From Patescibacteria group bacterium (GTDB lineage: Bacteria; Patescibacteriota; Minisyncoccia; Phycocordibacterales; PALSA-1337), in assembly GCA_038064415.1 (NCBI GenBank), contig JBBTTD010000005.1, positions 2,149-66,148 on the forward strand: a stretch of DNA of 64,000 nucleotides. The letters run 5' to 3'. The notes beneath the pieces are model-generated. The model made no database searches. It had not been told where the DNA came from and saw only the letters and a list, made by a program, of their open reading frames with translations. Positions within the stretch are counted from its first letter, which is position 1. Every line of letters begins with the position of its first letter. The translations under genes and the position numbers were made by a program. Positions 17,965 to 34,626 of the stretch are shown here, one piece after another.

Positions 17965-19470
17965 CTACTTCCTCGCGAACAATGGCTGTACCGGGGTCTT
18001 TTTATCAATAATCAGTTTTTTAATAGTCTCTGAAGTATTTGGGAGAATCGGCGTCAAAAGATTCGCAATCAGCCACAACTCTTCCAATAAATACTTAACC
18101 GCTTTCTCCCCCTTTACTCTATTTTCTTTGATAAGTTTAAATGGGGCATTTTCAGCGATATATTTATCCGATTTCATAATTCTTTCCCAAATCTCATCAC
18201 AGACTTTATTGATTTCAAACCCAGCTAACTTTTTGTCAAATTCTACCCAATCAACTGGTCCTTTTGTATTTTTTTCTTGAATCTTAGATCTTGAATCTTG
18301 AATCTTTCCCGTATCAATCCACACCTCATTTGTTTCCGCCATCTTCAAAATACGACTGGTTAAATTTCCGATACCATTCGCAAGATGAGCGTTGTACCCT
18401 TCTTTGAATTTCTCCATTGTGAATGGACTATCTCCAAATGGACTCAGTCCACGCGCCACATAGTAACGCAAAGCATCTGTGCCATATTCTTTGACAATTT
18501 CCACAGGATCAACAGTATTACCTAGTGATTTAGACATTTTCAAACCGCCTTCACCTGTAATAAAGCCATTGATTACAATGGTATGAGATGGCGGTAATCC
18601 TGCGGCCATCAACATCGCTTGCCACATCGCCGACTGCTGGCGAAGGTTATCTTTGCCACAATATTGAACTACCCCACCAGTTTCCACCCACCATTTCTTA
18701 AAAGCGCCCGCAGACTTTTTGCCAGCAATTTCATCATCAGGCCAACCAACAGTAGAAACATAATTAATTAATGCGTCAAACCAAACATACATGACATGCG
18801 CAGAATCATTTGGCACAGGTATTCCCCACGGCATCTTGGTTGCCAAACGAGAAATGCTAAAATCTTCCAGACCTCGTCCCACGAAAACTTTAATTTCATT
18901 GAGTCGAAAGTCTGGAATCACAAATAACGGATTTTCCAGATACAAATCAAGTAACTGTTTTTGAAAAGCGCTGAATCTGAAGAAATAATTTTCTTCATCA
19001 ATCAAAATCAATTCAGTGGTCGGATGAATAAAACAATGCCCATTCTCTAGTTCAGTATCAGTTATTTCAAGTTCACATCCAGGGCAATATTTGGTTTTAT
19101 ATAATTTTTTATAAATAAACCCGTTTGCATCGCACCGACGCCAAAATTCTTGCGCCGCTTTAGTATGATGTCTATCGGTAGTTCGAATGAAATGAATATC
19201 ATCACTCAATCCGAGAACATCTTTGAGCTCTCTGAATTTGATAACATATCGATCAACAAATGCTTGGGTATCTTCATTAAAATGGAAAGCTTTCTGATAT
19301 ATTTTAACACCATGTTCATCCGTGCCAGTATTGAAAAATACCTCATGTCCCGCAAGTTTTTTGACCCGCGCGATAATGTCGGCGCGAATAATTTCCATGG
19401 CAAAACCAATGTGCGGTTCAGCGTTCACATATGGCAGAGTCGTCGTGATGTAAAAAGGTTTTTTGTTCAT
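17965..19470 (-). CDS. metG: Methionyl-tRNA synthetase
   Basis: 501 aa. HIGH-type motif (PHIGFAMEII), KMSKSLGN, CXXC zinc knuckle (CPGCELE). Confidence 0.92.
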   Translation of the reverse strand: MNKKPFYITTTLPYVNAEPHIGFAMEIIRADIIARVKKLAGHEVFFNTGTDEHGVKIYQKAFHFNEDTQAFVDRYVIKFRELKDVLGLSDDIHFIRTTDRHHTKAAQEFWRRCDANGFIYKKLYKTKYCPGCELEITDTELENGHCFIHPTTELILIDEENYFFRFSAFQKQLLDLYLENPLFVIPDFRLNEIKVFVGRGLEDFSISRLATKMPWGIPVPNDSAHVMYVWFDALINYVSTVGWPDDEIAGKKSAGAFKKWWVETGGVVQYCGKDNLRQQSAMWQAMLMAAGLPPSHTIVINGFITGEGGLKMSKSLGNTVDPVEIVKEYGTDALRYYVARGLSPFGDSPFTMEKFKEGYNAHLANGIGNLTSRILKMAETNEVWIDTGKIQDSRSKIQEKNTKGPVDWVEFDKKLAGFEINKVCDEIWERIMKSDKYIAENAPFKLIKENRVKGEKAVKYLLEELWLIANLLTPILPNTSETIKKLIIDKKTPVQPLFARK

Positions 19471-22862: not shown

Positions 22863-24236
22863 TTATAGCATATCTGACTTGATTTTGTCAAGTAATTCCC
22901 CTTCACCAACCCTCTCCTGCTTACCAGTATCTCTATCTCTCATTGTCACCCCGTTGCCTTTTTCAATAGTCTCAAAATCAATCGTAATGCAATACGGCGT
23001 GCCGATCTCATCTTGTCGGCGATAGCGTTTGCCAATGTTGCCATTGTCGTCAAAAGTCACGGCTGGAATTACTTTTTTAATTGTTTTGTAAATTTCTTCG
23101 GCCTTCTTGACTAATTCTGGTTTATTTCGCAAAAGTGGAAATACCGCGACCTTATAAGGCGCGACCGATGGAGTAAGTCTCAAAAATACGCGCTTTTCTT
23201 GCTTAGTCAACTTGGCTTCAGCTGAAGTAGATTGATTTTCATCTGACGCGCCAGCACTTCCCATTTCATCTTCCGTATACGCATCCGCCAATATTGCTAA
23301 TACGGTGCGATCCAATCCAAATGACGGCTCAATGCAATGTGGAAAAAATCTTTCTTTGGTCTCATCATCATAATATGACAAATCAACCTTGCTGAATTCT
23401 GAATGTTGTTTCAAATCAAAATCAGCGCGATACGCGAGACCATACAATTCTTTTCTGCCAAAAGGAAAATCAAACTCAAAATCAATCGTCCGTTTTGAGT
23501 AATGGGCGCGTTCGCCATCAGGTACTTCTAGTTCGTGAACTTTTTTTGAATCCAACCCAAGTTCTGAAATAAAAGCTTTCATTTCGTCGCGGAAATGTTC
23601 AAAGGTTTTCTCCCAATCTTTTGGATTGACGAAATATTCTATCTCCATCTGCTCAAATTCACGCGCACGGAACAGAAAATCCCGCGGAGCAATCTCATTC
23701 CGAAAGGCCTTCCCTATTTGCGCCATACCGAATGGAAGTTTTGGATGAAATGTATCTAAAATGTTTTTGAAATTCACGAACATTCCTTGAGCAGTCTCCG
23801 GACGAAGATATGAAATTGAAGCGGTGTTTTCGCCGGCGCCGACATGCGTCTTGAACATCATGTTGAATTGTTTAACTTCACCAAGTTGTCCTCCACAATC
23901 GGAACATTTCTCAGCATCAGAAATCTGATCAGCGCGAAAACGATGTTTGCATTTTTTGCACTCAACCAAAGGATCCGCAAATCCGTCTACATGACCGCTT
24001 GCCTCCCAAGTTTTTTGATTCATGAGAATGGCGGCATCGGTAGCATACATATCATCACGATTTTCAACGAAACGATTCCACCAGACTTTTTTGATGTTAT
24101 TCTTCAAAGCTACACCCAGTGGCCCATAATCCCACATGCCAGCCAATCCACCATAAATATCAGAACCAGGAAAAATAAAACCTCGGCGCTTGCACAGGGC
24201 GACTAACAAATCCATGACATTTTCTTTTTTTACCAT
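22863..24236 (-). CDS. glyQS: Glycyl-tRNA synthetase (class II, alpha2 type)
   Basis: 457 aa. N-terminal RRGFIFPGSDIYGGLAGMWDYGPLG and class II motifs typical of dimeric GlyRS. Confidence 0.92.
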   Translation of the reverse strand: MVKKENVMDLLVALCKRRGFIFPGSDIYGGLAGMWDYGPLGVALKNNIKKVWWNRFVENRDDMYATDAAILMNQKTWEASGHVDGFADPLVECKKCKHRFRADQISDAEKCSDCGGQLGEVKQFNMMFKTHVGAGENTASISYLRPETAQGMFVNFKNILDTFHPKLPFGMAQIGKAFRNEIAPRDFLFRAREFEQMEIEYFVNPKDWEKTFEHFRDEMKAFISELGLDSKKVHELEVPDGERAHYSKRTIDFEFDFPFGRKELYGLAYRADFDLKQHSEFSKVDLSYYDDETKERFFPHCIEPSFGLDRTVLAILADAYTEDEMGSAGASDENQSTSAEAKLTKQEKRVFLRLTPSVAPYKVAVFPLLRNKPELVKKAEEIYKTIKKVIPAVTFDDNGNIGKRYRRQDEIGTPYCITIDFETIEKGNGVTMRDRDTGKQERVGEGELLDKIKSDML

Positions 24237-24293
24237 GGAGACATTCTATAACAAAAAAGAAGAATTACCAACGAAGGATATATTTTACTGCCA

Positions 24294-26240
24294 TCACTTA
24301 ACAACCACCCCCTGTCCATCCTTATAGTTCGGATCTGTACTAAAACGCGTGGAAAGATAATCTTGTTTGCTCTGAAGTTGCGCTCCCGTGAAGCTATCGG
24401 TAGCCGTAAGTATGGATTGATTAACCAAAGTCGGATTGTCTCCTTCTTGAATAACACTTGGCAAGAATGAGATTTGGAAATTGACTTCTCTCCTTCTAGA
24501 TGAATCAATCGTGTAGGTACTGACATTGCCGATATTCCAAGTCACTGTTCCACTATTTTCATCATAAGTAACCGACTCACTTGAAGGACTGACGACATTC
24601 AGCCATTTAACATATGGCGGCAAGGTGGCGATAACTTTGGCACCACCAACCGCGCTTGAAGTATTATCAACTGTCCAAACTACCGTATAAGTCGTCGGTT
24701 GTTCAACTTTTGGAGGAACTGGTCCTGTATTCGTAAATGGTCCGATAGTGCGCACAACGCGACCTGTTAGAGAAACATTGGAAGATACTCGGGTCGTTCT
24801 AGAAACCGAAGAAGAGAGCACGCTTGGTACATTTGATTCTTGAGTGCGATTGCCGGCAACACCGGCGGTAAAAGTAATGATTGGGTTAACGATTGGATTG
24901 GTAACGGTACTTTTGTCAGTGGGTATTATTGAGAAAGATACTGTACCGCTTTTCCCGGCGTCCACGGAAGCAAAATCACTATTAGTTTGTTGACTCCAAA
25001 TAATCTCATCTGTGGCGGAATTGTAGTAACCAACATCTGGCGCGACGGATGTTTTTTCATAAGCAGATCCAGAAAGTTTAACGGTGATTACCATGTTTGA
25101 AACCGTAGTCGTCAAATTATTGAACCAACCGACGCTGATACGCTCACTCCGACCAAACTGACTGACAAAATCACTTGAAGCGTCATTACCATCAATCAAT
25201 ATGCCCAAAGAAATAAACGGTTTCTGAATAGTCATGATTTGATCGGTGGACATGTATTGCGTGCCGATTGATTTTGGATCAGTTGAACTCTGCGCGCCCG
25301 CGATGAAACGAAATACTCGTGTATCATTATCTTCACCCTGAATCTTTCCGCGAATAGTCACTATTCGTTCTCCACCAGGTGGAATATCGCCAATTTTCCA
25401 AGTAGCATTGTCAGAAAGTGATTTGATGTCGGCTGATATAAAACTGAAACCAAAAGGATAACTGGCCTTCAGTAAAACATTTTTAAGGACATCCTGGGAA
25501 TTTGATCTGAGACTGACCTTCATGTCAAATTCTTGACCAGAAGTGATTTCATTAAACGAAGAAGCCGTCAAAAGTATTGGCGAGGAATTGATCAAAACAT
25601 CGTAGGAAGTCTTTTTGGTAAATAAAGAGCTTGATCCTTTTATTTTATAAGTAACGCTGACTTCAATAGATTTTTGGAGATTTTCTTCACCAAACATTAT
25701 GGCACTAACTGTTTTGCGCGCGGAACCGCCCGCAGGAATGTCACCGAACAATTCGCGAAATGTTTTCAATTCTTGAGTGGAATCTTTGGAATCGGTCGTA
25801 CCAGCGGGAAAATCAATCGCCAAGTCAGCGCCCTGCAAATCAACATTGTTTTTATTCAAAACAGTTATATCAAATGAAACGATCGCTCCGCCCGGAATGG
25901 AAACAGGGCCACTGATGGAAATATCTATATTATTCGCGGAAATGAGATTGGAACCATTATAAAAAATGTAAGCCCCAATGCCGACGGCGACAATACAAAA
26001 TATCAGTGAGCCAATCAATAGTTTTGTAAAAAATGACATGGAATGATCTTCATAATGCGTGTTTAAAATAGGTTTGAGATCTTCATCTTTGGGGTGTTCC
26101 CAATCGGTTCTAACTTGACTATCACTGGGCGTGAAGCGAAGTTTGCGGCGAGTCCGTACATCAGGAGTATTGCGCGAATACAGCGATTTTTTCAACTCCT
26201 CTATACGATTTTTCTCTTCACTTGGGGGCATATCAATCAA
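24294..26240 (-). CDS. Large membrane-anchored hypothetical protein (cytoplasmic N-terminus, one TM, beta-rich extracellular region)
   Basis: 648 aa. TM segment FFTKLLIGSLIFCIVAVGIGAYIF after a ~70-aa charged N-terminus. No recognised catalytic motif. Confidence 0.65.
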   Translation of the reverse strand: MIDMPPSEEKNRIEELKKSLYSRNTPDVRTRRKLRFTPSDSQVRTDWEHPKDEDLKPILNTHYEDHSMSFFTKLLIGSLIFCIVAVGIGAYIFYNGSNLISANNIDISISGPVSIPGGAIVSFDITVLNKNNVDLQGADLAIDFPAGTTDSKDSTQELKTFRELFGDIPAGGSARKTVSAIMFGEENLQKSIEVSVTYKIKGSSSLFTKKTSYDVLINSSPILLTASSFNEITSGQEFDMKVSLRSNSQDVLKNVLLKASYPFGFSFISADIKSLSDNATWKIGDIPPGGERIVTIRGKIQGEDNDTRVFRFIAGAQSSTDPKSIGTQYMSTDQIMTIQKPFISLGILIDGNDASSDFVSQFGRSERISVGWFNNLTTTVSNMVITVKLSGSAYEKTSVAPDVGYYNSATDEIIWSQQTNSDFASVDAGKSGTVSFSIIPTDKSTVTNPIVNPIITFTAGVAGNRTQESNVPSVLSSSVSRTTRVSSNVSLTGRVVRTIGPFTNTGPVPPKVEQPTTYTVVWTVDNTSSAVGGAKVIATLPPYVKWLNVVSPSSESVTYDENSGTVTWNIGNVSTYTIDSSRRREVNFQISFLPSVIQEGDNPTLVNQSILTATDSFTGAQLQSKQDYLSTRFSTDPNYKDGQGVVVK

Positions 26241-26301
26241 TTATACAATGATCAATAACCAATGACCAATGGTTTATACGCGCGAAAATACGATGACGAT
26301 T

Positions 26302-26961
26302 TCAGAGGTGTGACTCTTTCAAGGCCTTATTTATATGTGCGTTGATATTCATTCTTTGCGAACCAACTTCATCTAATAGTTGAACACCTAAATTGTCGGC
26401 CGTAATTTTTGGATTTAATTTTTTATCTGCGCCAATGTATCCAAGCAGATGTAAAATCCTAAAAACAATAACTGATTCAGTAGTTTTCAATCGTATGTCC
26501 GACAAATCCTCTGAACTCTCAATAAAAGCGAAAGATTTTTCAATATGGTCAAACAATTCCGGATGCGCCTCTTCGCCATGGAGCAATCGACGCAGAAGCA
26601 GAACTATTCTGCCAATAATCTCTTTTAATTCACTGCTATTTTTAGCTTTCTCATTTTTTTGTTTTCCTGTCGCCCTTATCGCATTTCGCCCGTCCCAATT
26701 TGTTTCTTGCGACTTTCTACTCTCATCTCGCAACTGATTCGCATTCGTCAATCGCCAATACTCTTTTCCTCTAACAAAAGAAAATTCACCAAAAGAATAC
26801 TCTTGGGAATGAAAGCGTAATTTTGACTTTTCTAATCGTATTCCTTGCGCACTGACCATTATCAGACCTAGATCTCTGGTAAAAATAGAGAAAACTTTTC
26901 CAGACTCACCTCTTGGTCTAGATTCAATGATGAAGCCGGGGGTTGTAGTTACCAAATACAT
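26302..26961 (-). CDS. recO: DNA repair protein RecO
   Basis: 219 aa. N-terminal OB fold GFIIESRPRGESGKVFSIFTRDLGLIMVSAQGIR matching RecO. Confidence 0.75.
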   Translation of the reverse strand: MYLVTTTPGFIIESRPRGESGKVFSIFTRDLGLIMVSAQGIRLEKSKLRFHSQEYSFGEFSFVRGKEYWRLTNANQLRDESRKSQETNWDGRNAIRATGKQKNEKAKNSSELKEIIGRIVLLLRRLLHGEEAHPELFDHIEKSFAFIESSEDLSDIRLKTTESVIVFRILHLLGYIGADKKLNPKITADNLGVQLLDEVGSQRMNINAHINKALKESHL

Positions 26962-26963
26962 GA

Positions 26964-29900
26964 CTAAATATCTAACTTAAAAGTTGATCCACCAACGATT
27001 ATTCCCTCTTTTTGTATAGGTTTGAATGTAATGTCACCAAGCAAGCTCACTGATGAAATTTTCGTACTATTTTTCTCAATAAATTTTCTACCCGCATCAT
27101 CAGTTTCAATCAAAAGAATCACTTTATCATTTACGCTTAAACCTTTCTCCTTGCGCAAGTCTTGAATAGCACGAATAAGCTCGCGAACCATGCCCTCTTC
27201 TTTCAATTCTGGAGTAATATTCACATCAAGCTGTACATCTGTTTCAATCTTTGCTCCAAAGGCAATCTCTTTGACATTAACTTCATCTTTTATTAGATCA
27301 ACGAGTTGACTATTGACCATTGAACCTTGGTCATTCTTAATCCTCAAAGATTGAAGTGGTTGTCTGACATTGATCTTTGTCATCATTCGCGCCTCAAGAC
27401 CTTTGGAAGCCAGATCTCTAACCAGTTTCATACTTTTAATCAGTTCCGAGTCAACAGCACCAGCCGTCGGCCATAATTCCAAATGGACGCTTTGAATGGA
27501 GTCGCTATTTGAACCATTTATGTCATCCCTGATTTGTAATTCTTGGTTTTTGATTTTTCTGTATATTTCCTCCGCGATAAACGGCGTAAACGGCGCGAGC
27601 AACTTTGAAACCTGAAGTAAAATAAATCTGGTCGTCTCAAGCGCTGAATTTTTATCTGATTCATTATCGCCCTTGAATCGCTCACGCGACCTCCTCAAAT
27701 ACCAAGTAGAAATATCGTCGGTAAGATCCATTAGTGGCCAAGAAGCGCGATCAAGTTCACCGGATTCAAGTCCGACGGTCACGGCTGTGATAGTTTCATT
27801 CAGTCGCGCGATAATCCATTGATCTAGTACATTTTGTGATTCTACTTTTGACTTTTGACTTTTGACTTTTGACTGATCTTTATACATCTCATAAAACGAC
27901 ACGACATTTAACAATCGGTTGATCAATTTTTTTGTTATTTCATCAACCCCCTTTTCACTGAATCGCAAATCCTGCCCACGAACAACTGGTGAAGACAATA
28001 AATAGTAACGCAATGAATCCGCGCCATATTTATCAACAAGAGACATCGGATTAGGATAATTATTTTTCCTTTTTGCCATCTTCTGCCCATCTTCTGCCAA
28101 GACTAAACCATTAACAATAACTTTTTTGTATGGGGCCTTGCCAAATAAAGCCACCCCTAAAACGAGCATTGAGTAGAACCAGCCACGAGTCTGGTCTACC
28201 CCTTCCGCGATGAAATCAGCCGGATAGCCCTGCGATTTTTTGAACCAACTGGATTCTGGTTCAAATATCCGTGCGAATCTACCTTGTGTGTCCTGCGCAC
28301 TCTCAAACGGATAATGATTTTCTCCATAAGGCATAGATCCCGACTCAAGCCAGCAATCAAAGACATCTGGTACTCTAACTAATTTATTTCCTTCGGAAGT
28401 TTTTAATCCCAAATCGTCAATAAATGGTCTATGTAGATCAAGTTCATATTCGGAATTGTGTGGCAGTGGCGTGAAATCAAGTTTTTTTACTTCGGCATTC
28501 AAAAGAAATTCTTCGTGTCCACGAAATATTAGACTTTGTTCACGATTCATCCCTTGCGCCACGGTCATTAAAAGAAATCCCGGGGTCTCGTGAGTTATTA
28601 TTAGAATATTTTTGTCCTGATATTTTCGCTCCAAATCATAAAGAAAATCACCCATGCGTTTTTTGATCTCAACATAAGTCTCGCCGCCTTCTGGACTAAC
28701 TACAAAACGATCCTTGTCCGCGAATTGCTTAAAAAATAATTCAATACTTTTGCCATCCATAACGCCACTTTCCATCTCACGGATTCTATCGTCGGTACGA
28801 ATAATATTTTTGTTCCAACCAAGTCTATCGCGTAAAATTTCCATAGTATCTTGCGTACGCACAAATGGAGAAACAAAAACCAAGTCAAATTTGATGTTAC
28901 TCAATGATTTGGCGGCTTTTTCTACCTGTTGTCTACCGTTCAGTGTCAAATGATTTGGCGCCTTAGAATCTCCACTCAAAATACCTTCAACATTACTATC
29001 CGCCTCGCCATGGCGCATTATCCAATAATTATTTTTGGCCTTACTGAATTTCTTCAAATCTCCAACAGAACCCATAACATGATATCTTTCGCGTGATTCT
29101 TGAGTGTCATTTCGCGCTTTTGACTTTTCATCTTTTTCTTCCTTCCACACCGGTATCGGAGCACCCCAAAACCTAGAACGCGAAATCGCCCAATCACGCG
29201 CCCCTTCCAGCCAATTGCCAAATCGCGCCGAACCAACCTCGGGTGGCACCCAAGTAATTTTTTTGTTTTCCGCGACCAGTTTGTCTCTGATATCCGTGAC
29301 TTTCACAAACCAAGACGAGGTGGCGTAATTTAAAAGAGGCGTATCACAGCGCCAACAATGCGGATATGGGTGAACTAGTTTTTCCTTGGCAAAAAGTAAA
29401 TCTTTGCGCGCCAAAAATTTAATTATTTCAATATCTGTTTTTTGATGAGCATCTTTTTCATTTTCTGTATCTATCGGTTTGACACGCAATCCCGCGAAAT
29501 CAGTAACCTCTTTTTTGAATGTTCCGTCAATTGAAACATGTTGGACAAATGGTAAATTGTTCTTTAATGATAGGTCATAATCATCAGCGCCAAATGCTGG
29601 AGCAATATGAACAATGCCCGTACCATCTTCTGTTGTGACAAAATCCGCGCCGTAAATCTTCCAGCCATGTTCGCGATTTTTTAGATTCGGATCTCTTGAA
29701 TAATAATCAAAAAGTGGTTTGTAGGATTTGCCAATTAATGATAAACCTTTGAAAGATTCAACAACTTCGTATTTTTTGTCCTTCAGCACAGAAAGTTGAT
29801 TTCTTGCGAGAATGAAAAACTTGGATAAATTAGTTATGTCGTCAATAATTCTAATCTTCACATAATCAATATTGGTACTGATTGCCAAAGCCACATTCCC

Positions 29901-30620
29901 TGGTAGAGTCCAAGGTGTAGTTGTCCAAGCAAGGATATATGTGCCCGGTTCATTTATAAGTTCAAACTTGGCAGTAACTGAAATGTCCGTAATATCCTTA
30001 TATCCCTGCGCAACCTCAAAGTTTGACAATGTCGTTTCGCATCGCGGACACAAATTCATTAACTTGAATCCCTCATAAATCAAACCTCTGTCATGCAACC
30101 GCTTGAAAATCCACCAGACTGTTTCAGTGTAACTTGCGTCCATGGTGCGATAATCATGATCCATGTCAACCCAACGCCCCAAGCGAGGCACGATTTTACG
30201 CCATTCATCAGCATAACGCATTACACTTTCGCGAGCCGCCTGGTTAAATTTCTCAATGCCATAATCAACTATCTCTTTCTTACTTTTCAGACCAAGCTCT
30301 TTTTCAACCAGATTTTCCACCGGTAAACCATGGCAATCCCAACCCCATCGTCTTTCAACATGATACCCTTGCATTGTTTTCCAGCGTGGAATTGTATCTT
30401 TGATTATTCCAGCCAAAATATGACCGTAATGTGGCAGACCGTTGGCAAAAGGCGGACCATCATAAAAAGTGAATTTACCATTAGTTGATTTTTTCTCTAG
30501 AGACTTCTCAAAAATACCCCTCTCTTTCCAAAAGGCTAATATTCGTTCTTCGCGCTCGGCATGAGTTGATTTTTTGTTATTTTCTTCTGGATTAACCATG
30601 AAATGTATGGGTTGAATCAT
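26964..30620 (-). CDS. ileS: Isoleucyl-tRNA synthetase carrying an inserted histidine-phosphatase (PGAM-like) domain
   Basis: 1218 aa. HIGH (PHYGH), WTTTPWTLP, WAISRSRFWGAPIP, KMAKR (KMSKS-like). After the PIPVW motif, residues ~493-725 (nt ~28446-29144) form an extra domain with RHG signature IMRHGEADSN, FVSPFVRTQDT and ITHETPG. Confidence 0.93.
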   Translation of the reverse strand: MIQPIHFMVNPEENNKKSTHAEREERILAFWKERGIFEKSLEKKSTNGKFTFYDGPPFANGLPHYGHILAGIIKDTIPRWKTMQGYHVERRWGWDCHGLPVENLVEKELGLKSKKEIVDYGIEKFNQAARESVMRYADEWRKIVPRLGRWVDMDHDYRTMDASYTETVWWIFKRLHDRGLIYEGFKLMNLCPRCETTLSNFEVAQGYKDITDISVTAKFELINEPGTYILAWTTTPWTLPGNVALAISTNIDYVKIRIIDDITNLSKFFILARNQLSVLKDKKYEVVESFKGLSLIGKSYKPLFDYYSRDPNLKNREHGWKIYGADFVTTEDGTGIVHIAPAFGADDYDLSLKNNLPFVQHVSIDGTFKKEVTDFAGLRVKPIDTENEKDAHQKTDIEIIKFLARKDLLFAKEKLVHPYPHCWRCDTPLLNYATSSWFVKVTDIRDKLVAENKKITWVPPEVGSARFGNWLEGARDWAISRSRFWGAPIPVWKEEKDEKSKARNDTQESRERYHVMGSVGDLKKFSKAKNNYWIMRHGEADSNVEGILSGDSKAPNHLTLNGRQQVEKAAKSLSNIKFDLVFVSPFVRTQDTMEILRDRLGWNKNIIRTDDRIREMESGVMDGKSIELFFKQFADKDRFVVSPEGGETYVEIKKRMGDFLYDLERKYQDKNILIITHETPGFLLMTVAQGMNREQSLIFRGHEEFLLNAEVKKLDFTPLPHNSEYELDLHRPFIDDLGLKTSEGNKLVRVPDVFDCWLESGSMPYGENHYPFESAQDTQGRFARIFEPESSWFKKSQGYPADFIAEGVDQTRGWFYSMLVLGVALFGKAPYKKVIVNGLVLAEDGQKMAKRKNNYPNPMSLVDKYGADSLRYYLLSSPVVRGQDLRFSEKGVDEITKKLINRLLNVVSFYEMYKDQSKVKSQKSKVESQNVLDQWIIARLNETITAVTVGLESGELDRASWPLMDLTDDISTWYLRRSRERFKGDNESDKNSALETTRFILLQVSKLLAPFTPFIAEEIYRKIKNQELQIRDDINGSNSDSIQSVHLELWPTAGAVDSELIKSMKLVRDLASKGLEARMMTKINVRQPLQSLRIKNDQGSMVNSQLVDLIKDEVNVKEIAFGAKIETDVQLDVNITPELKEEGMVRELIRAIQDLRKEKGLSVNDKVILLIETDDAGRKFIEKNSTKISSVSLLGDITFKPIQKEGIIVGGSTFKLDI

Positions 30621-30629
30621 TCTAGCATT

Positions 30630-30664
30630 TTTTTAATAGCGAGGTCGGACCTCGCTATTAAAAA
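30630..30664. repeat. 35-bp perfect palindrome TTTTTAATAGCGAGGTC-G-GACCTCGCTATTAAAAA (family 1 core AGGTCSGACCT); probable bidirectional terminator
   Basis: 17+1+17 inverted repeat between the ileS start and the stop of gene 30674-31093. Confidence 0.7.
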
Positions 30665-30673
30665 GACCGACGG

Positions 30674-31093
30674 TTACCCATCGGCGTGAAGACTTAAGTT
30701 GTTATGACGAATATTGGTAACTATTGTCCTACAGATTTCGATTTTAGCTAAATCATCGCCAAAATCAGGTATGCGCAGAAACAATTGTATACCGTTCGGT
30801 AGATTCTGGTCGTCTGAATCAAAAGCTTGAAGTTCAAGATACATTCGCCCACTATGGCTACTAAATTGGCCTGAAGGATCGTAAACCCGTAAAGAAGCAG
30901 AGCGAGTAAATTTACCAATCGGATTGTGAATATTTGGCATGATTATTACCCATAACGTTCCGGTCGGATCGACGGATTTCTTTATTGGGGAACAATACCC
31001 TTGCTGTAGCAATGTCTTTGTCTCAAAAAATTTGAAACACGCCGTCAGTTCTTCATACCAATTGCAAAGGGCTCGAACATAATCAATCTTCAT
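30674..31093 (-). CDS. Hypothetical protein
   Basis: 139-aa ORF, no recognisable motif. Confidence 0.45.
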   Translation of the reverse strand: MKIDYVRALCNWYEELTACFKFFETKTLLQQGYCSPIKKSVDPTGTLWVIIMPNIHNPIGKFTRSASLRVYDPSGQFSSHSGRMYLELQAFDSDDQNLPNGIQLFLRIPDFGDDLAKIEICRTIVTNIRHNNLSLHADG

Positions 31094-31175
31094 ATCTCGT
31101 TCTATTTTATGTTGTTTTCTATGTCAAATCTAGCACCAAACAAAATAATTGCAACCGCTAGATGATTGCGCCTAA

Positions 31176-32963
31176 CTACATCTTCTTCGGGACTTTTATC
31201 CCCAAAATCCACAACCCATTTGTCATCGTGGTCAAAAATGCTTGCGTCAAAGCCAATCTATACGAAGATTGAGGATCTTTCTCGTCAATAATAGTTTGAA
31301 CTGCATAATAATTATTGAAAGCTCCAGCCAGATTGACCAGATAGTTTGCCACCTGTTGAGGTGAATATTCTTCTCTGGCACGCTCTACAATATCTGGAAA
31401 TCTGAAAATCAATTTTTCCAATAATGTAACTTCGCTTGGTATGCTTTCATTTTGAATCTTGAATCTTGAATCTTGAATCCTTGCCTTTTCTAACACTGCC
31501 GCCGCCCTGACCGCCGAATATTGCAGATACGGTCCCGAATCTCCTTCAAATGAAATAGATTTAGTTGAATCAAAAATAACATCACCGCCGATTGATTGAC
31601 GGAGAATTGTGTATTTGATCGCGCCGATTGCCACAATGTCAGATATTTCATTTTTGTCCGTCAGACTCAATTCGCGAACGGCGATTTTTTTAGCCACCAA
31701 TTCGCGAATATCCTCAAGTAATGACTCTGCCGAAACAATATTACCTTTTCTGGACGACATCTTTCCTGAAGAAAAACGAAGAAGACCATGTGAAATGTGT
31801 TTGGTTTTCGTGAAAATGTTTTGATCAATTAATGAAAACGCTTTCAATAATACTTTGAAATAATCACCTTGTTCATTCGCCGTAACAATAATTGACCCGT
31901 CTAAATCCGGATATTTCTTGAACTTCTCAATATTGAGACCAATTTCTTTGGCTTCATAAGTTGGCAATCCTTGAGAGGTGATGAAAACACGCGTATGTAG
32001 ATCATAATCTTCACCTTTGAAAATTATAGCACCCTCGCTTTCGGTAAATACTCCCTTTTTAATAAATTCACGCACAACCTTTACACCATCGGTGGCGACT
32101 TCACTCTCAAAGAAAAACTGATCAAATTTCGTGCCAAGTCGCTCGTAAATCAAATCGAAATATTCCAAGCTCCATTTTCGACCCTGTTCATATATTTCAT
32201 TGATTTTGGGATCGGATTTCCCAAATATCTCCTTGTTAATCATGGCAATTTCCTTCTGCGCGGTAGCATCATCATCAAATTTTGCCCCATAAACATACAT
32301 TTCACCCAACCATTTTACTTTTTCGGTTACTGTCTTCTCTCCAATCCCTAGTCTCCAATTTTCAAATCCTTGTTTCTTCAGTATCGCCCAAATAGTTTTC
32401 GCCACATGCAATCCGACATCGCCTTGATAACAAGCACGAATGACATTACCGCCAGAAGATTGGATTAATCGTGAAATTGATTCACCAACCGCATTAGACA
32501 TCAAATGACCGATATGAAAAACCTTGAAAGGATTCGGGTCAGTATACTCAACCATTATTTTTTTACCAGAATCGGAATTATTCCAACCATACTCTTTCCC
32601 ATTTTTTGCAATCGTCACAACATTTTCTGCAAAAATTTTATCTTTGATTTTGAAATTTATGAATCCGGGACCGGCAATGGTGATTGATTGAACAAAATCC
32701 GGTTGTCCTTTTTTTAGTTCAACAATAATCAACTCCGCCATTTCTTTTGGATTTTTAGGAATTTTCGATTTTTCAATTACCCAAGAAATTTTCCCGATAT
32801 GAGAATCGACTAAACCTGCAAATTTTTTAAAGGTAACCATAGCCACATTACTGGAAAAATCTCCATGATCTGGATTTTCCGGATACTCTAAAGTAAAAGA
32901 TGTCTCGGTTATGCCGAGTCTATTTAGAGATTTGATTATTTGACCCTGAAGCTTTTCCTTCAT
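31176..32963 (-). CDS. argS: Arginyl-tRNA synthetase
   Basis: 595 aa. HIGH motif (FHIGHLMS) and C-terminal DALR anticodon-binding domain. Contains an in-frame (GATTCAA)x4 microsatellite at 31447-31478. Confidence 0.92.
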   Translation of the reverse strand: MKEKLQGQIIKSLNRLGITETSFTLEYPENPDHGDFSSNVAMVTFKKFAGLVDSHIGKISWVIEKSKIPKNPKEMAELIIVELKKGQPDFVQSITIAGPGFINFKIKDKIFAENVVTIAKNGKEYGWNNSDSGKKIMVEYTDPNPFKVFHIGHLMSNAVGESISRLIQSSGGNVIRACYQGDVGLHVAKTIWAILKKQGFENWRLGIGEKTVTEKVKWLGEMYVYGAKFDDDATAQKEIAMINKEIFGKSDPKINEIYEQGRKWSLEYFDLIYERLGTKFDQFFFESEVATDGVKVVREFIKKGVFTESEGAIIFKGEDYDLHTRVFITSQGLPTYEAKEIGLNIEKFKKYPDLDGSIIVTANEQGDYFKVLLKAFSLIDQNIFTKTKHISHGLLRFSSGKMSSRKGNIVSAESLLEDIRELVAKKIAVRELSLTDKNEISDIVAIGAIKYTILRQSIGGDVIFDSTKSISFEGDSGPYLQYSAVRAAAVLEKARIQDSRFKIQNESIPSEVTLLEKLIFRFPDIVERAREEYSPQQVANYLVNLAGAFNNYYAVQTIIDEKDPQSSYRLALTQAFLTTMTNGLWILGIKVPKKM

Positions 32964-33045: not shown

Positions 33046-33401
33046 TGACAAATAAGGCAATATCGGTTATATTCGTTCTAGACATGTGGAGCTTTGTTTG
33101 GGTCAGCTTCACTGCGTGAACTCGCGCGACAAGTGCTCCCTCTCCGGAGCCTCTAGCGCGACCATGCTAAGGAAAGAACTCCGACAAGAAGTTCACTTCT
33201 AATTCAGACGATGAATCGGTTCCTCGAGACATCTGGAGGTCCATGACTATCCTCCATCGCCGTCGCCGACGGCATCTTGCATGTCAATTGTCTGAAAGAA
33301 GACCTCAAATACTCCCTTGCGTCCGCGGTGCTTGTGCTACACCATCGCGAGGGAGTACCCACTTTTTAGCGCGGTTTGTTTAACCGCGCTTTTTTAATTT
33401 T
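33046..33401 (+). ncRNA. Candidate structured non-coding RNA (~320 nt) with own promoter and terminator; identity unknown
   Basis: Consensus promoter TTGACA-17nt-TATATT at 33046-33076. GC-rich ORF-free body with many local hairpins. Intrinsic terminator GCGCGGTT-TGTT-AACCGCGC plus T-run at 33369-33401. Confidence 0.4.
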
Positions 33402-34626
33402 TAACACCCTTCAAAATCCGATCAATTCTCTTTGCGATGATCATAAAGTCTTTTTCTTTTTTACCCCTAGTCGTTTCAGCGGCAGTACCTAGACGAATAC
33501 CCGATGGATCAGTGGGTGGTCGGGCATCAAAAGGGATAGCGTTCTTATTTACGATAACTCCCTCTTTTTCTAGCGCGTCACTTGCGATCTTTCCGGCAAC
33601 AGCTCCAGCACCTTTTTCATTCTTTTTGCCACTCATCCAAGTATCAATCAAGATCAAATGTGAATCTGTCCCGCCAGAAATTATTTTCCAGCCATATTTT
33701 TTTAATTCTTCAGCTAGAATCTTCGCGTTTAATTTGACCTGTTTTGCATATTTTTTGAATGCTGGACTATTGGCTTCTTTCAGAGTGACTGCCACAGCCG
33801 CGATTTGATTGGCGTGTGGGCCTCCCTGCAAACCCGGAAATACCGCTTTGTCTATTTTCTTATCTAAATCCAAAGGTTTTCCAGTAGAATCATTTTTATT
33901 TTTCTTGGAAAAAATCAAAGCCGAGCGTGGTCCACGCAATGTTTTATGGGTTGTGGTTGTGACAATGTCAGCATACTGAAAAGGCGTCGGGTATTCCCCG
34001 CCCGCGACCAAACCGGCAAAATGCGACATATCTACCATTAGTAAAGCGCCACTTGCATCAGCTATTTCGTGAAATTTCTTAAAATCAACAAATCTTGGAT
34101 AAGCAGTAAAACCAGCCACAATAATATTCGGCTTTTCTCTCAAAGCTATTATTTTAAGGTCATCATAATTTAAGATTTCAGTATTTTTATCAACGCCATA
34201 TGGAATTTGAGTCCAAAACTTTCCAGTGGCTGAAACTTTGTGGCCATGAGTCAAATGTCCGCCTTGATCTAGAGACATACCCATAATTTTTTCTTTAAAT
34301 GGGACAAGCGCTAGATATACCGCCAAATTTGCTGGCGAACCGGAAAGTGGTTGGACATTGACATGCCAATCATTTGAATCTAGTTTGAAAAGTTTGAGGG
34401 CGCGTTGTTTGCACAATTCTTCAAGCTTATCAATATTCTCATTACCGCCATAATATCTAAGCTCAGAATACCCTTCGGCATACTTATTGGTCAGTTCTGA
34501 ACCAAGCGCTGTAAGCACATCTCTGGAGACATAGTTTTCCGAGGCAATTAGATTTATCGCCTTCTTTTGGCGCTTTTTCTCCGCTTGAATTAGTTTTTTT
34601 ATTTGTATGTCTTTCATGTGAATCAA
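33394..34626 (-). CDS. glyA: Serine hydroxymethyltransferase
   Basis: 410 aa. PLP-lysine region THKTLRGPR and conserved SHMT N-terminus. Confidence 0.93.
   Translation of the reverse strand: MIHMKDIQIKKLIQAEKKRQKKAINLIASENYVSRDVLTALGSELTNKYAEGYSELRYYGGNENIDKLEELCKQRALKLFKLDSNDWHVNVQPLSGSPANLAVYLALVPFKEKIMGMSLDQGGHLTHGHKVSATGKFWTQIPYGVDKNTEILNYDDLKIIALREKPNIIVAGFTAYPRFVDFKKFHEIADASGALLMVDMSHFAGLVAGGEYPTPFQYADIVTTTTHKTLRGPRSALIFSKKNKNDSTGKPLDLDKKIDKAVFPGLQGGPHANQIAAVAVTLKEANSPAFKKYAKQVKLNAKILAEELKKYGWKIISGGTDSHLILIDTWMSGKKNEKGAGAVAGKIASDALEKEGVIVNKNAIPFDARPPTDPSGIRLGTAAETTRGKKEKDFMIIAKRIDRILKGVKN

What the first reader, a model, noticed from the sequence alone, without database searches (positions are those of the whole stretch)
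28446..29144. Histidine-phosphatase (PGAM-like) domain inserted inside isoleucyl-tRNA synthetase
Seen in the sequence: between the conserved WAISRSRFWGAPIPVW motif and the DLHRPFIDD/CWLESG region of IleRS lies a ~230-aa insertion. Its core (aa ~531-715) carries the branch-1 histidine-phosphatase catalytic signature.
- RHG motif: IMRHGEADSN.
- SPLxRA-like motif: FVSPFVRTQDT.
- Second catalytic His: LIITHETPGF.
The domain looks intact and is in frame within an essential gene. Established knowledge: bacterial IleRS has a variable, often zinc-binding, insertion at this position. An enzymatically plausible phosphatase there is not an architecture I recognise. It could be a moonlighting or regulatory phosphatase, for example acting on a nucleotide or alarmone. 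The 1218-aa length fits a full extra domain.
Basis: partly seen in the sequence, partly recalled or inferred. Interest (0 to 1): 0.8.

Follow-up and report, generated by a model that had tools for sequence, protein, structure and literature searches.

The report
Active phosphatase domain nested inside IleRS
The isoleucyl-tRNA synthetase of this groundwater Parcubacteria (candidate phyla radiation) genome carries a complete, apparently active histidine-phosphatase domain in a surface loop of its catalytic body; hundreds of related species share this arrangement, and I found no paper describing it.

Summary
ORF 26964-30620 (minus strand, 1218 aa) is a type-2, eukaryote-like IleRS (TIGR00392, 866 bits). 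Residues 533-699 match Pfam His_Phos_1 at E 2.8e-29.

- **Position.** The roughly 190-aa domain sits in a loop of the CP3 subdomain. Deleting aa 530-722 in silico gives a sequence that aligns without a break to human, yeast and Candida IleRS.
- **Catalytic residues.** R536/H537 (RHG), R588, E615 and H677 align with those of CobC and TIGAR. They are 94-100% conserved in 181 domain copies from 167 proteins that are otherwise only 30-60% identical.
- **Fold.** The AlphaFold model (pLDDT 92) is closest to small-molecule phosphatases: PspA, Rv2419c, the riboflavin-pathway histidine-family phosphatase 9mmh, TIGAR, CobC and PhoE.
- **Distribution.** The fusion is not an artefact. It occurs in at least 579 stretches of species-representative genomes, all of the best 80 from Patescibacteria/Parcubacteria. 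It also accounts for 139 protein clusters at 50% identity.
- **Variants.** Some relatives carry 2-4 tandem copies, a copy at a second site, or an added P-loop kinase-like domain.

Best reading: a bifunctional enzyme in which an autonomous phosphomonoesterase, most likely acting on a small metabolite or nucleotide, uses IleRS as scaffold. The substrate and any coupling to aminoacylation are unknown. No paper describing it was found.

The parts
26964..30620 (-). Complete gene for a 1218-aa type-2 isoleucyl-tRNA synthetase with a nested histidine-phosphatase domain
   Evidence: ORF listing. TIGR00392 ileS scores 866 bits against a cut-off of 621. The exact protein is on at least 3 contigs and in NCBI as 'class I tRNA ligase family protein [Patescibacteria group bacterium]'.
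30420..30431 (-). HIGH signature (HYGH, aa 64-67) of the aminoacylation site
   Evidence: Read from the sequence. H46/Y47/G48/H49 in model numbering are nearly invariant in 120 fused homologues.
29580..29924 (-). CP1 editing-domain motifs TTTPWTLPGN (aa 233-242) and GTGIVHIAPAFGADD (aa 333-347)
   Evidence: Read from the sequence. The corresponding columns are invariant or nearly invariant in alignment A4.
29163..29201 (-). CP2-CP3 linker ARDWAISRSRFWG (aa 474-486). The equivalent yeast segment lines the reveromycin A pocket, which is the tRNA(Ile) binding site.
   Evidence: Read from the sequence. Homologous to ScIleRS 453-ARDWNVSRNRYWG-465 as described in PMC7955072.
29034..29144 (-). N-terminal part of native CP3 (aa 493-529), including a 13-aa lineage-specific extension and the helix GSVGDLKKFSKAK
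   Evidence: Aligns to human IleRS GSVAELEELSGAK. The model has a short strand and helix here.
28470..29033 (-). Nested histidine-phosphatase domain (about aa 530-717; boundaries good to a few residues)
   Evidence: Pfam PF00300 matches aa 533-699 at E 2.8e-29. The family HMM envelope is 528-705. AlphaFold domain model has pLDDT 92.3. Foldseek finds PspA, Rv2419c, TIGAR, CobC and PhoE with TM-score (target-normalised) 0.63-0.78.
29007..29015 (-). RHG motif: R536 and the nucleophilic H537
   Evidence: Aligns to RHGE of TIGAR and CobC. R and H are present in 173 of 173 domain copies.
28857..28859 (-). R588 (in SPFVRT), the second phosphate-binding arginine
   Evidence: 172 of 172 conserved; S584 is 173 of 173. 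Aligned.
28776..28778 (-). E615 (in REMESG), the presumed general acid/base
   Evidence: E in 162 of 172 copies and D in 7 more. Aligns to the LRE / LNE motif of TIGAR and CobC.
28590..28592 (-). H677 (in ITHE), the second catalytic histidine
   Evidence: 164 of 166 conserved. Aligns to the SHQG histidine of CobC.
28386..28469 (-). Return into native CP3: PLPHNSEYELDLHRPFIDD...
   Evidence: Insert-free type-2 IleRS carry LPRNxxGEVDLHRP(F/Y)IDD at this place. The segment aligns contiguously to eukaryotic IleRS once the insert is deleted.
28068..28082 (-). KMSKS-loop signature, here KMAKR (aa 847-851)
   Evidence: Read from the sequence. K, M and the second K are invariant in the family, whose consensus is KMSKS.
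27351..27824 (-). Anticodon-binding domain (Pfam Anticodon_1, aa 933-1090)
   Evidence: PF08264, E 1.1e-25.
26979..27239 (-). C-terminal DUF5915 domain (aa 1128-1214); it recurs in every fused homologue listed
   Evidence: PF19302, E 9.8e-19. Present in all 120 best full-length homologues.

Best explanation
The gene encodes a bifunctional protein.

**Shown.**
- It is a full, type-2 IleRS whose aminoacylation and editing motifs are under purifying selection.
- One surface loop of its CP3 subdomain hosts a complete branch-1 histidine-phosphatase domain.
- The domain folds autonomously and keeps every catalytic residue.
- The fusion is inherited together with the IleRS core across a large Parcubacteria (Patescibacteria/CPR) clade.

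**Inferred mechanism.** The domain works like its relatives PhoE, PspA, CobC and TIGAR.
- H537 attacks a phosphomonoester and forms a phosphohistidine intermediate.
- R536, R588 and H677 hold the phosphate.
- E615 acts as general acid/base, and water then releases phosphate.

**Inferred substrate and role (least certain).** The substrate is most likely a small phosphorylated metabolite or mononucleotide, not tRNA or protein. IleRS mainly serves as a permissive, constitutively expressed scaffold, so in these tiny genomes the phosphatase dose is tied to the translation machinery. It probably does not take part in the chemistry of aminoacylation.
For: **Identity of the two parts.**
- IleRS: TIGR00392 866 bits. 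Best PDB sequence matches are human, yeast and P. megaterium IleRS2 at E 1e-207 to 1e-215, against 1e-77 for type 1.
- The full-length model (pLDDT 85.7, pTM 0.78) superposes on IleRS2, ScIleRS and TtIleRS with TM-score (target-normalised) 0.80-0.86.
- Phosphatase: PF00300 at E 2.8e-29. Residue-level alignment to TIGAR and CobC.
- Catalytic R/H/R/E/H are 94-100% conserved in 181 copies from 167 proteins.

**Clean nested insertion.** The deletion construct aligns contiguously to eukaryotic IleRS. The insert is 192-201 aa in all 120 close homologues.

**A real, inherited feature.**
- At least 579 stretches in species-representative genomes, and the best 80 loci all carry an IleRS-like ORF.
- 66 of the 80 best loci match the strict IleRS-phosphatase-IleRS motif chain in one uninterrupted frame.
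- 139 clusters at 50% identity with E <= 1e-30.
- Insert and core pairwise identities correlate, r = 0.64.

**Small-molecule class.**
- All top-50 fold matches are small-molecule enzymes (PspA, Rv2419c, the riboflavin-pathway histidine-family phosphatase 9mmh, TIGAR, CobC, PhoE, dPGMs). No protein phosphatase of the superfamily is among them.
- SixA matches only the first 70 residues.
- Net charge of the domain is about zero (mean -0.3; -3 in the window), so it is not consistently basic as an RNA binder might be.

**Dose or diversification rather than precise geometry.**
- Relatives carry 2-4 tandem copies, all with intact R/H.
- In the two-copy proteins P0237, P0243 and P0256 the first copies group together and the second copies group together, which points to an old duplication.
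- Copies also occur at a second site before the anticodon-binding domain.
Against: - No substrate was identified. The domain scores far below the curated cut-offs of every functionally named NCBIfam equivalog.
- The family is essentially exclusive to IleRS: 141 of 148 representatives have IleRS flanks and the rest are short fragments. Copies occupy at least two sites of the same enzyme. A purely opportunistic scaffold does not explain why it is always IleRS, which hints at a functional link to isoleucine, tRNA(Ile) or IleRS itself.
- The base of the insertion adjoins the CP2-CP3 linker, which in yeast lines the tRNA binding pocket (PMC7955072).
- Other aaRS in the window (MetRS, ArgRS, a class II enzyme) have normal sizes.
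Confidence: 0.5

Rival explanations
1. tRNA-end repair. [quoted passage not shown] Such damage could follow nuclease action or toxin-mediated modification of the 3' end.
For: - The insertion is rooted in CP3, next to the CP2-CP3 linker that lines the tRNA binding pocket in yeast IleRS.
- The domain is exclusively associated with IleRS.
- One relative adds a P-loop kinase-like domain with a weak Pnkp1 resemblance, E 0.056.
Against: - The closest sequence and fold relatives all act on small molecules.
- The domain is not basic.
- A repair activity tied to one of twenty synthetases would not protect the other tRNAs.
- Copies at a second, sequence-distant site and in tandem arrays argue against a precise geometry.
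- No PADLOC defence-system match.
Confidence: 0.13
2. In-cis protein phosphatase. The domain dephosphorylates IleRS itself, for example Ser/Thr in or near the KMSKS loop, or a partner protein. This would counter a kinase, by analogy with HipA/HipT toxins that phosphorylate GluRS and TrpRS (analogy from my own knowledge).
For: - Exclusive association with IleRS at more than one tether point.
- The superfamily contains protein phosphatases (SixA, PGAM5, Sts; from my own knowledge).
- The best fold match hydrolyses phosphoserine.
Against: - The KMSKS serine is not conserved. The window has KMAKR yet keeps an intact phosphatase.
- No kinase is conserved in the neighbourhood of the 80 loci.
- Protein-phosphatase members of the superfamily are not among the top matches.
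- Four tandem active copies are hard to rationalise for self-repair.
Confidence: 0.1
3. Metabolic sensor or regulator. The domain binds, or is histidine-phosphorylated by, a phosphorylated metabolite. Through CP3 it then tunes IleRS activity, coupling translation to energy or carbon status.
For: - The domain sits inside the catalytic body next to the active-site entrance.
- TIGAR and FBPase-2 relatives have regulatory roles (established knowledge).
- In vertebrates CP3 is used as a regulatory protein-protein interface (PMC13439101).
Against: - Near-invariance of the full catalytic set, including the acid/base E615, suggests turnover rather than binding only.
- Multiple tandem copies and a second insertion site do not fit a single allosteric path.
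Confidence: 0.1
4. It is the cell's cofactor-dependent phosphoglycerate mutase, or another named pathway enzyme such as CobC or PspA, merely fused to IleRS.
For: - The best NCBIfam phosphatase-type hit is archaeal dPGM, 79-83 bits.
- The top fold hit is the phosphoserine phosphatase PspA.
- SHMT lies three genes away, at 33394-34626.
Against: - All scores are far below the curated cut-offs: dPGM_arch 79-83 vs 225; TIGR01258 17.8 vs 81.7; CobC 69-74 vs 162.9; PspA 50-54 vs 350.
- The motif after the acid/base Glu is EMESG, not the ERHYG of dPGM as I recall it, so the residues that bind the second phosphate or carboxylate are missing.
- Against: no such activity.
Confidence: 0.07
5. Artefact or dead remnant: an assembly chimera, an intein-like mobile insertion, or a decaying pseudo-enzyme.
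For: None beyond the unusual architecture.
Against: - The identical protein is on at least 3 contigs.
- Hundreds of species have an uninterrupted ORF.
- Catalytic residues are invariant.
- There is no HINT domain, and the residue after the conserved 'HN' varies (S/A/G/R/K/E), so there is no intein splice junction.
Confidence: 0.02

Closest known systems
Small-molecule branch-1 histidine phosphatases: PhoE/YhfR (1H2E), metal-independent phosphoserine phosphatase PspA (4IJ5), CobC alpha-ribazole phosphatase (6NRU/6E4B), glucosyl-3-phosphoglycerate phosphatase Rv2419c (4PZ9), TIGAR (3DCY)
   Same: Same fold (Foldseek probability 1.00, TM-score (target-normalised) 0.63-0.78). Same RHG...R...E...H catalytic set, aligned residue by residue. 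Similar size of about 190-210 aa, with a short cap region.
   Different: Only 19-26% identical. Below every curated equivalog cut-off. Never free-standing here, but nested in a loop of an aminoacyl-tRNA synthetase. Substrate unknown.
Type-2 (eukaryote-like) IleRS: P. megaterium IleRS2 (8C8U/8C8V), S. cerevisiae (7D5C, 8WND), C. albicans (6LDK), human IARS1 (9W01), T. thermophilus (1ILE)
   Same: Same domain order: Rossmann fold, CP core, CP1 editing domain, CP2, CP3, anticodon-binding domain and C-terminal domains. HIGH and KMSKS-type motifs are present. About 30% identity and TM-score (target-normalised) 0.80-0.86.
   Different: In those enzymes CP3 is a 60-70-aa subdomain, with a zinc motif in T. 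thermophilus (PMC7191050). Here one of its loops hosts a roughly 190-aa enzyme domain. The window protein also has two further short loop extensions.
NCBIfam NF040702 'isoleucine--tRNA ligase, N-acetyltransferase domain-containing' (ileS_w_GNAT)
   Same: A curated precedent for an IleRS that carries an extra catalytic domain unrelated to aminoacylation (listed).
   Different: The extra domain is a GNAT, not a histidine phosphatase. The window protein scores 317 bits against a cut-off of 1999. I did not determine where the GNAT sits. No NCBIfam model reaching its cut-off names the phosphatase fusion; in NCBI the window protein is called only 'class I tRNA ligase family protein'.
Bifunctional RNase H/acid phosphatase of mycobacteria (NCBIfam NF005567, PRK07238) and PFK-2/FBPase-2
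   Same: Examples of a branch-1 histidine phosphatase fused to a nucleic-acid enzyme or to a P-loop kinase. The relative P0210 likewise combines the phosphatase with a P-loop kinase-like domain.
   Different: Those are end-to-end fusions, not nested insertions. Scores of 74-78 bits against a cut-off of 326 mean it is not a member. In P0210 the kinase-like domain is generic (APS or shikimate kinase-like, E about 0.02-0.03) and follows the phosphatase rather than preceding it.

Membership tests
Histidine phosphatase superfamily, branch 1 (Pfam PF00300) | Significant match to the family profile above the curated threshold | tested here: met
   102.6 bits, E 2.8e-29, cut-off 21.7; profile positions 2-169 of 194.
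Histidine phosphatase superfamily, branch 1 (Pfam PF00300) | RHG motif with the nucleophilic His, a second Arg, a second His and an acidic proton donor, aligned with those of characterised members | tested here: met
   R536/H537, R588, E615 and H677 align to TIGAR and CobC. They are 94-100% conserved in 181 family copies.
Histidine phosphatase superfamily, branch 1 (Pfam PF00300) | PGAM-like alpha/beta fold | tested here: met
   AlphaFold model pLDDT 92.3, pTM 0.86. Foldseek probability 1.00 and TM-score (target-normalised) up to 0.78 to PspA, Rv2419c and PhoE.
Histidine phosphatase superfamily, branch 1 (Pfam PF00300) | Phosphomonoesterase or mutase activity through a phosphohistidine intermediate | not testable with these tools
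   Requires enzymology.
Cofactor-dependent phosphoglycerate mutase (TIGR01258, NF038349 dPGM_arch) | Score above the equivalog or subfamily cut-off | tested here: not met
   NF038349 79-83 bits vs 225; TIGR01258 17.8 vs 81.7.
Named small-molecule phosphatases: CobC (TIGR03162), PspA (NF045917), GpmB (NF002901); and the protein phosphatase SixA (TIGR00249) | Score above the equivalog cut-off | tested here: not met
   CobC 69-74 vs 162.9; PspA 50-54 vs 350; GpmB 39-43 vs 261; SixA 39-43 vs 74.5, and SixA matches only the first 70 residues.
Isoleucyl-tRNA synthetase (TIGR00392) | Score above the equivalog cut-off; HIGH and KMSKS-type motifs; CP1 editing motifs | tested here: met
   866 bits vs 621. 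HYGH at aa 64-67, KMAKR at 847-851, TTTPWTLPGN and GTGIVHIAPAFGADD present and conserved in the family.
Type-2 (eukaryote-like) IleRS | Closer in sequence and fold to eukaryotic cytosolic IleRS and bacterial IleRS2 than to type-1 IleRS | tested here: met
   E 1e-207 to 1e-215 vs 1e-77. TM-score (target-normalised) 0.80-0.86 vs 0.66-0.74. The C-terminal DUF5915 domain is present.
Mupirocin-resistance IleRS MupA/MupB (NF000257, NF000258) | Score above the exception-model cut-off | tested here: not met
   716 and 744 bits vs 1900.
IleRS with GNAT domain (NF040702) | Score above the cut-off; presence of a GNAT domain | tested here: not met
   317 bits vs 1999; no acetyltransferase Pfam hit.
Intein or mobile protein insertion | HINT domain; conserved Cys/Ser at the N-junction; HN followed by Cys/Ser/Thr at the C-junction | tested here: not met
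   No HINT hit. The residue after the conserved HN varies (S, A, G, R, K, E) and the N-junction has no conserved nucleophile. The HN belongs to the native IleRS LPRN/LPHN motif.

The most novel reading that the evidence does not exclude
The phosphatase is functionally coupled to IleRS rather than merely carried by it. It would act in cis on the 3' end of tRNA(Ile) or on IleRS itself, reversing phosphorylation or pyrophosphorylation by a toxin or phage factor. Alternatively it would gate aminoacylation in response to a phosphometabolite. Either way it would be a built-in repair, immunity or sensing module inside an aminoacyl-tRNA synthetase.
Probability: 0.25. Interest if true: 0.85.

Novelty: new variant of a known kind. 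Interest (0 to 1): 0.62.

Why it matters
- **An unusual kind of aaRS elaboration.** Aminoacyl-tRNA synthetases are among the most conserved enzymes. Extra domains are known mainly as terminal appendages in eukaryotes. A second, catalytically intact enzyme nested inside the catalytic body of an essential bacterial synthetase, kept across hundreds of species, is unusual and is directly testable by biochemistry.
- **A clue to CPR physiology.** If the phosphatase is coupled to tRNA(Ile) or to IleRS regulation, it would reveal a new layer of translational control or repair in CPR bacteria, whose physiology is largely unknown.
- **Protein engineering.** Even if it is only a passenger, it marks CP3 and two other loops as permissive insertion sites in class Ia synthetases.
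- **An annotation hazard.** Pathway reconstructions that count PF00300 or 'phosphoglycerate mutase family' hits could credit Parcubacteria with a metabolic enzyme that is really part of IleRS. Fragments of the gene are being named 'histidine phosphatase family protein'.

Tried and rejected
- **Inter-domain geometry.** The full-length AlphaFold model was obtained, but its coordinates and PAE are not exposed. I could not measure the distance or orientation of H537 relative to the synthetic site, the editing site or the tRNA path.
- **AFDB fold search.** The afdb50 library was unavailable, so UniProt-named neighbours could not be retrieved.
- **Free-standing relatives.**
  - A domain-only search of the 5.8-billion protein set returned a single hit, a limit of the word index.
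  - The short proteins among the representatives carry IleRS flanks and so are fragments of fusions.
- **Alignment for the genome scan.** A diverse 16-sequence alignment was too divergent to seed the scan. A closer 5-sequence alignment worked.
- **Literature.** Five searches combining IleRS or aaRS terms with histidine phosphatase, phosphoglycerate mutase, Parcubacteria, Patescibacteria, acetyltransferase or fused found nothing relevant. A sixth, on candidate phyla radiation, aaRS, insertion and domain, listed 12 papers whose titles and abstracts did not concern this.
- **Anti-phage defence link.** No PADLOC hit for the insert.
- **Neighbourhood clue.** The conserved neighbours are ArgRS, a RecO-like protein and a ~640-aa predicted surface protein with no confident family match. 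There is no kinase, toxin or phosphate-metabolism gene.
- **Intein or mobile insertion, and assembly artefact.** Both rejected.
- **dN/dS.** Not attempted, because synonymous sites are saturated at 45-60% amino-acid identity.
- **Second ileS.** Whether these genomes carry a second, insert-free ileS could not be checked, because only 8-12-kb loci can be read.
Full report
**1. Observation.**
The window carries a single uninterrupted ORF at 26964-30620 on the minus strand, 1218 aa. The finding's coordinates (28446-29144) are aa 493-725.

- Pfam His_Phos_1 matches aa 533-699 with E 2.8e-29, 102.6 bits against a cut-off of 21.7.
- The excised 233 aa alone give E 1.2e-30.
- The same 1218-aa protein is found on at least three contigs. 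One is from a 0.1-um fraction of a groundwater metagenome (ENA ERZ1292619, 'Hain_H41_01um').
- It is in NCBI as 'class I tRNA ligase family protein [Patescibacteria group bacterium]'.

**2. The host protein.**
It is an isoleucyl-tRNA synthetase (TIGR00392, 866 bits against a cut-off of 621). It belongs to the type-2, eukaryote-like kind.

- PDB sequence matches to human, yeast, Candida and P. megaterium IleRS2 have E 1e-207 to 1e-215. Type-1 enzymes reach only about 1e-77.
- The full-length AlphaFold model (pLDDT 85.7, pTM 0.78) superposes on IleRS2, ScIleRS and TtIleRS with TM-score (target-normalised) 0.80-0.86. For type 1 the range is 0.66-0.74.
- HIGH (HYGH 64-67), the KMSKS-type loop (KMAKR 847-851) and the CP1 editing motifs are present.
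- The corresponding columns are invariant or nearly so in 120 homologues.

The synthetase part therefore looks fully functional.

**3. Exact position of the insert.**
I removed aa 530-722 in silico. The remaining sequence then aligns as one continuous stretch with human, C. albicans and S. cerevisiae IleRS across the junction: GSVGDLKKFSKAK|SEYELDLHRP against human GSVAELEELSGAKI--SDLHRE.

- In 58 insert-free type-2 IleRS fragments, the distance from WGxPIP to DxWFxSG is 52-83 aa.
- Those fragments read ...GSxxELxx...LPRNxxGEVDLHRP....
- The 'PLPHN...DLHRP' that follows the phosphatase is therefore native IleRS sequence, and the inserted piece is about 190 aa (aa ~530-717).

According to the Candida and yeast structures this region is the CP3 subdomain (Ca 473-534, Sc 459-526).

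- CP3 is a small peripheral module whose topology differs between IleRSs. It carries a zinc motif in T. thermophilus (PMC7191050).
- The preceding CP2-CP3 linker (here ARDWAISRSRFWG) lines the reveromycin A pocket, which is the tRNA(Ile) binding site, in yeast IleRS (PMC7955072).
- In vertebrates CP3 is a protein-protein interface (PMC13439101).

**4. The inserted domain.**
HMMER alignments to TIGAR (3DCY, E 2.7e-13) and CobC (6NRU, 6E4B) place the catalytic residues on their counterparts: R536/H537 on the RHG motif, R588 on the second arginine, E615 on the acid/base glutamate and H677 on the second histidine.

- Modelled alone with 132 sequences, the domain is confident (pLDDT 92.3, pTM 0.86).
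- Its best Foldseek matches in the PDB all act on small molecules. They are the metal-independent phosphoserine phosphatase PspA (E 2e-14, TM 0.78), glucosyl-3-phosphoglycerate phosphatase Rv2419c, the riboflavin-pathway histidine-family phosphatase 9mmh, TIGAR, CobC, PhoE and then the dPGMs.
- It reaches no curated cut-off of any functionally named NCBIfam model: dPGM_arch 79-83 vs 225, CobC 69-74 vs 162.9, PspA 50-54 vs 350, SixA 39-43 vs 74.5.

It is a member of the superfamily, but it cannot be filed under any named enzyme.

**5. Distribution and evolution.**
An exhaustive HMMER search of 1.84 billion cluster representatives, using the insert plus flanks, found 139 clusters at E <= 1e-30. 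Most match the whole 293-aa query as one stretch at about position 440-740 of 1150-1200-aa proteins.

- 141 of the 148 representatives new to that search have IleRS flanks. The other seven are 159-289-aa fragments. I saw no free-standing member.
- A full-length search returned 120 of 120 fused IleRS at 54-70% identity.
- The 80 best are all from Patescibacteria and are labelled Parcubacteria, Paceibacterota, Taylor-, Nomura-, Zambryski-, Campbellbacteria or Minisyncoccia. All 80 loci carry an IleRS-like ORF.
- 66 of the 80 match my strict IleRS-phosphatase-IleRS motif chain in one uninterrupted frame.
- The synteny ArgRS-IleRS-RecO-like-surface protein is shared by 58-63 of them.

Across 181 domain copies the conservation is as follows.

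| Residue | Conserved |
|---|---|
| R536 | 173 of 173 |
| H537 | 173 of 173 |
| S584 | 173 of 173 |
| R588 | 172 of 172 |
| E615 | 162 of 172, plus 7 Asp |
| E647 | 166 of 167 |
| H677 | 164 of 166 |

Overall identity among these copies is only 30-60%. Within the 120 close homologues:

- The insert is always 192-201 aa long.
- It evolves faster than the core (51.5% against 69.1% mean pairwise identity).
- The two identity measures correlate (r = 0.64).

This points to one old insertion, vertical inheritance, and purifying selection on catalysis.

**6. Variants.**
About 6% of the representative clusters carry more than one copy.

- P0230 has four tandem copies.
- P0237, P0243 and P0256 have two each. 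Their first copies group together and their second copies group together in the NJ tree, so that duplication is old.
- P0196 and P0254/P0392 carry a second copy at a different site. It is the loop between the end of the catalytic domain and the first helix of the anticodon-binding domain. P0392 is on a 1.06-Mb contig.
- P0261 (GCA_021733565.1) has only that site-2 copy, and its CP3 contains a CQSCGKYTC motif instead.
- P0210 has the site-1 phosphatase plus a P-loop kinase-like domain in a third loop. That domain weakly resembles APS kinase, shikimate kinase and Pnkp1.

All copies keep the RH dyad. Sites 2 and 3 correspond to low-confidence loops of the window model.

**7. How it most likely works.**
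Shown:
- an intact IleRS;
- an intact, autonomously folding histidine-phosphatase module;
- long-term co-inheritance of the two.

Inferred from the family mechanism (established knowledge of the branch-1 superfamily):
- H537 forms a phosphohistidine intermediate;
- R536, R588 and H677 bind the phosphate;
- E615 acts as acid/base.

The substrate class is an inference from three things.
- The nearest neighbours by sequence and fold are all small-molecule phosphomonoesterases, and no protein phosphatase of the superfamily is among the top 50.
- The domain has neutral net charge.
- Multiplication and diversification of active copies at several tether points fits enzyme dose or new specificities better than one precise in-cis reaction.

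I therefore favour an autonomous metabolite or nucleotide phosphatase riding on IleRS (confidence about 0.5).

The main weakness is the strict exclusivity for IleRS. Together with the position next to the tRNA pocket, it keeps coupled functions alive:
- tRNA(Ile) 3'-end repair (0.13);
- an in-cis protein phosphatase (0.10);
- a metabolite sensor (0.10).

A true dPGM, CobC or PspA is unlikely given the scores (0.07). An artefact or dead remnant is excluded for practical purposes (0.02).

**8. Novelty.**
Both parts are well-known families. The nested combination is abundant in sequence databases and is auto-annotated by Pfam.

- Five targeted literature searches found nothing relevant, and a sixth listed 12 papers whose titles and abstracts did not concern it.
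- NCBIfam has a dedicated model for an IleRS with a GNAT domain, but none reaching its cut-off names this fusion.
- Database names range from 'isoleucyl-tRNA synthetase' and 'class I tRNA ligase family protein' to 'histidine phosphatase family protein, partial' and 'hypothetical protein'.

I rate it a new variant of a known kind. It is of real interest to aaRS and CPR biologists, but no mechanism linking the two activities has been demonstrated.

**9. Limits.**
- The AFDB fold library was unavailable.
- Whole genomes could not be read, so I could not check for a second ileS or for complementary gene loss.
- The substrate is unknown.

Noticed in passing
L083 4001-8188 (protein P0210, ENA ERZ27262687 k141_147860): A related IleRS carries the CP3 phosphatase plus a P-loop kinase-like domain (AAA_18/AAA_33, Walker A GACGAGKT). 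The second domain sits in a third loop, between CWFESGSMPYA and PADFIAEG. It resembles APS kinase, shikimate kinase and Pnkp1 only weakly. It is a singleton cluster on an 11.6-kb contig.
   Followed up: partly
L084 4001-8260 (P0392, on a 1.06-Mb contig); also P0196 and P0254: These IleRS have two phosphatase domains at two different sites: the CP3 loop, and the loop just before the anticodon-binding domain. The window has a low-complexity loop, KDQSKVKSQKSKVESQN, at the second site.
   Followed up: partly
L082 3001-6822 (P0261, GCA_021733565.1 JAKFZD010000009.1): This IleRS has the phosphatase only at the second site, and its CP3 contains a CQSCGKYTC motif. Either the domain was captured independently or IleRS genes recombined. 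The organism was not identified.
   Followed up: partly
protein P0230 (ENA, contigs up to 3.9 kb): Four tandem histidine-phosphatase copies lie in one IleRS fragment, all with the RH dyad. The three full-length copies cluster together in the NJ tree, indicating recent duplication.
   Followed up: partly
window 28068-28082 (-): The KMSKS signature reads KMAKR in this protein, with both serines replaced. The consensus of 120 close homologues is KMSKS; only K, M and the second K are invariant.
   Followed up: partly
window 22863-32963 (-); loci L002-L081: The gene order ArgRS, IleRS, RecO_N-like protein, ~640-aa predicted surface protein is conserved in 58-63 of the 80 related genomes. In the window, a class II aaRS (22863-24236) and MetRS (17965-19470) follow, both of normal length. 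The RecO-like ORF starts two bases after the IleRS stop codon.
   Followed up: yes
window 30674-31093 (-): A 139-aa ORF between ArgRS and IleRS has no Pfam match and is not among the conserved neighbour families.
   Followed up: partly
window 28284-28361 (-) and 29091-29132 (-), approximate: Two further short extensions relative to eukaryotic IleRS: about 13 aa (EKSKARNDTQESR) at the start of CP3, and about 17-20 aa (TQGRFARIFEPESSWFKKSQ) after CWLESG. The second is predicted disordered (pLDDT below 50) and coincides with the loop that hosts the kinase-like domain in P0210.
   Followed up: partly
loci L004, L009, L011, L012 and others (TPA_asm records): Many of the closest loci are titled 'uncultured Candidatus Saccharibacteria bacterium'. 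They share 50-56% identity with loci labelled Parcubacteria or Taylorbacteria. The label may be generic rather than taxonomically accurate.
   Followed up: no
window 1313-4036 (-): A 907-aa protein with a lecithin:cholesterol acyltransferase-like (LCAT, PF02450) domain, which I would not have expected in a small CPR genome.
   Followed up: no
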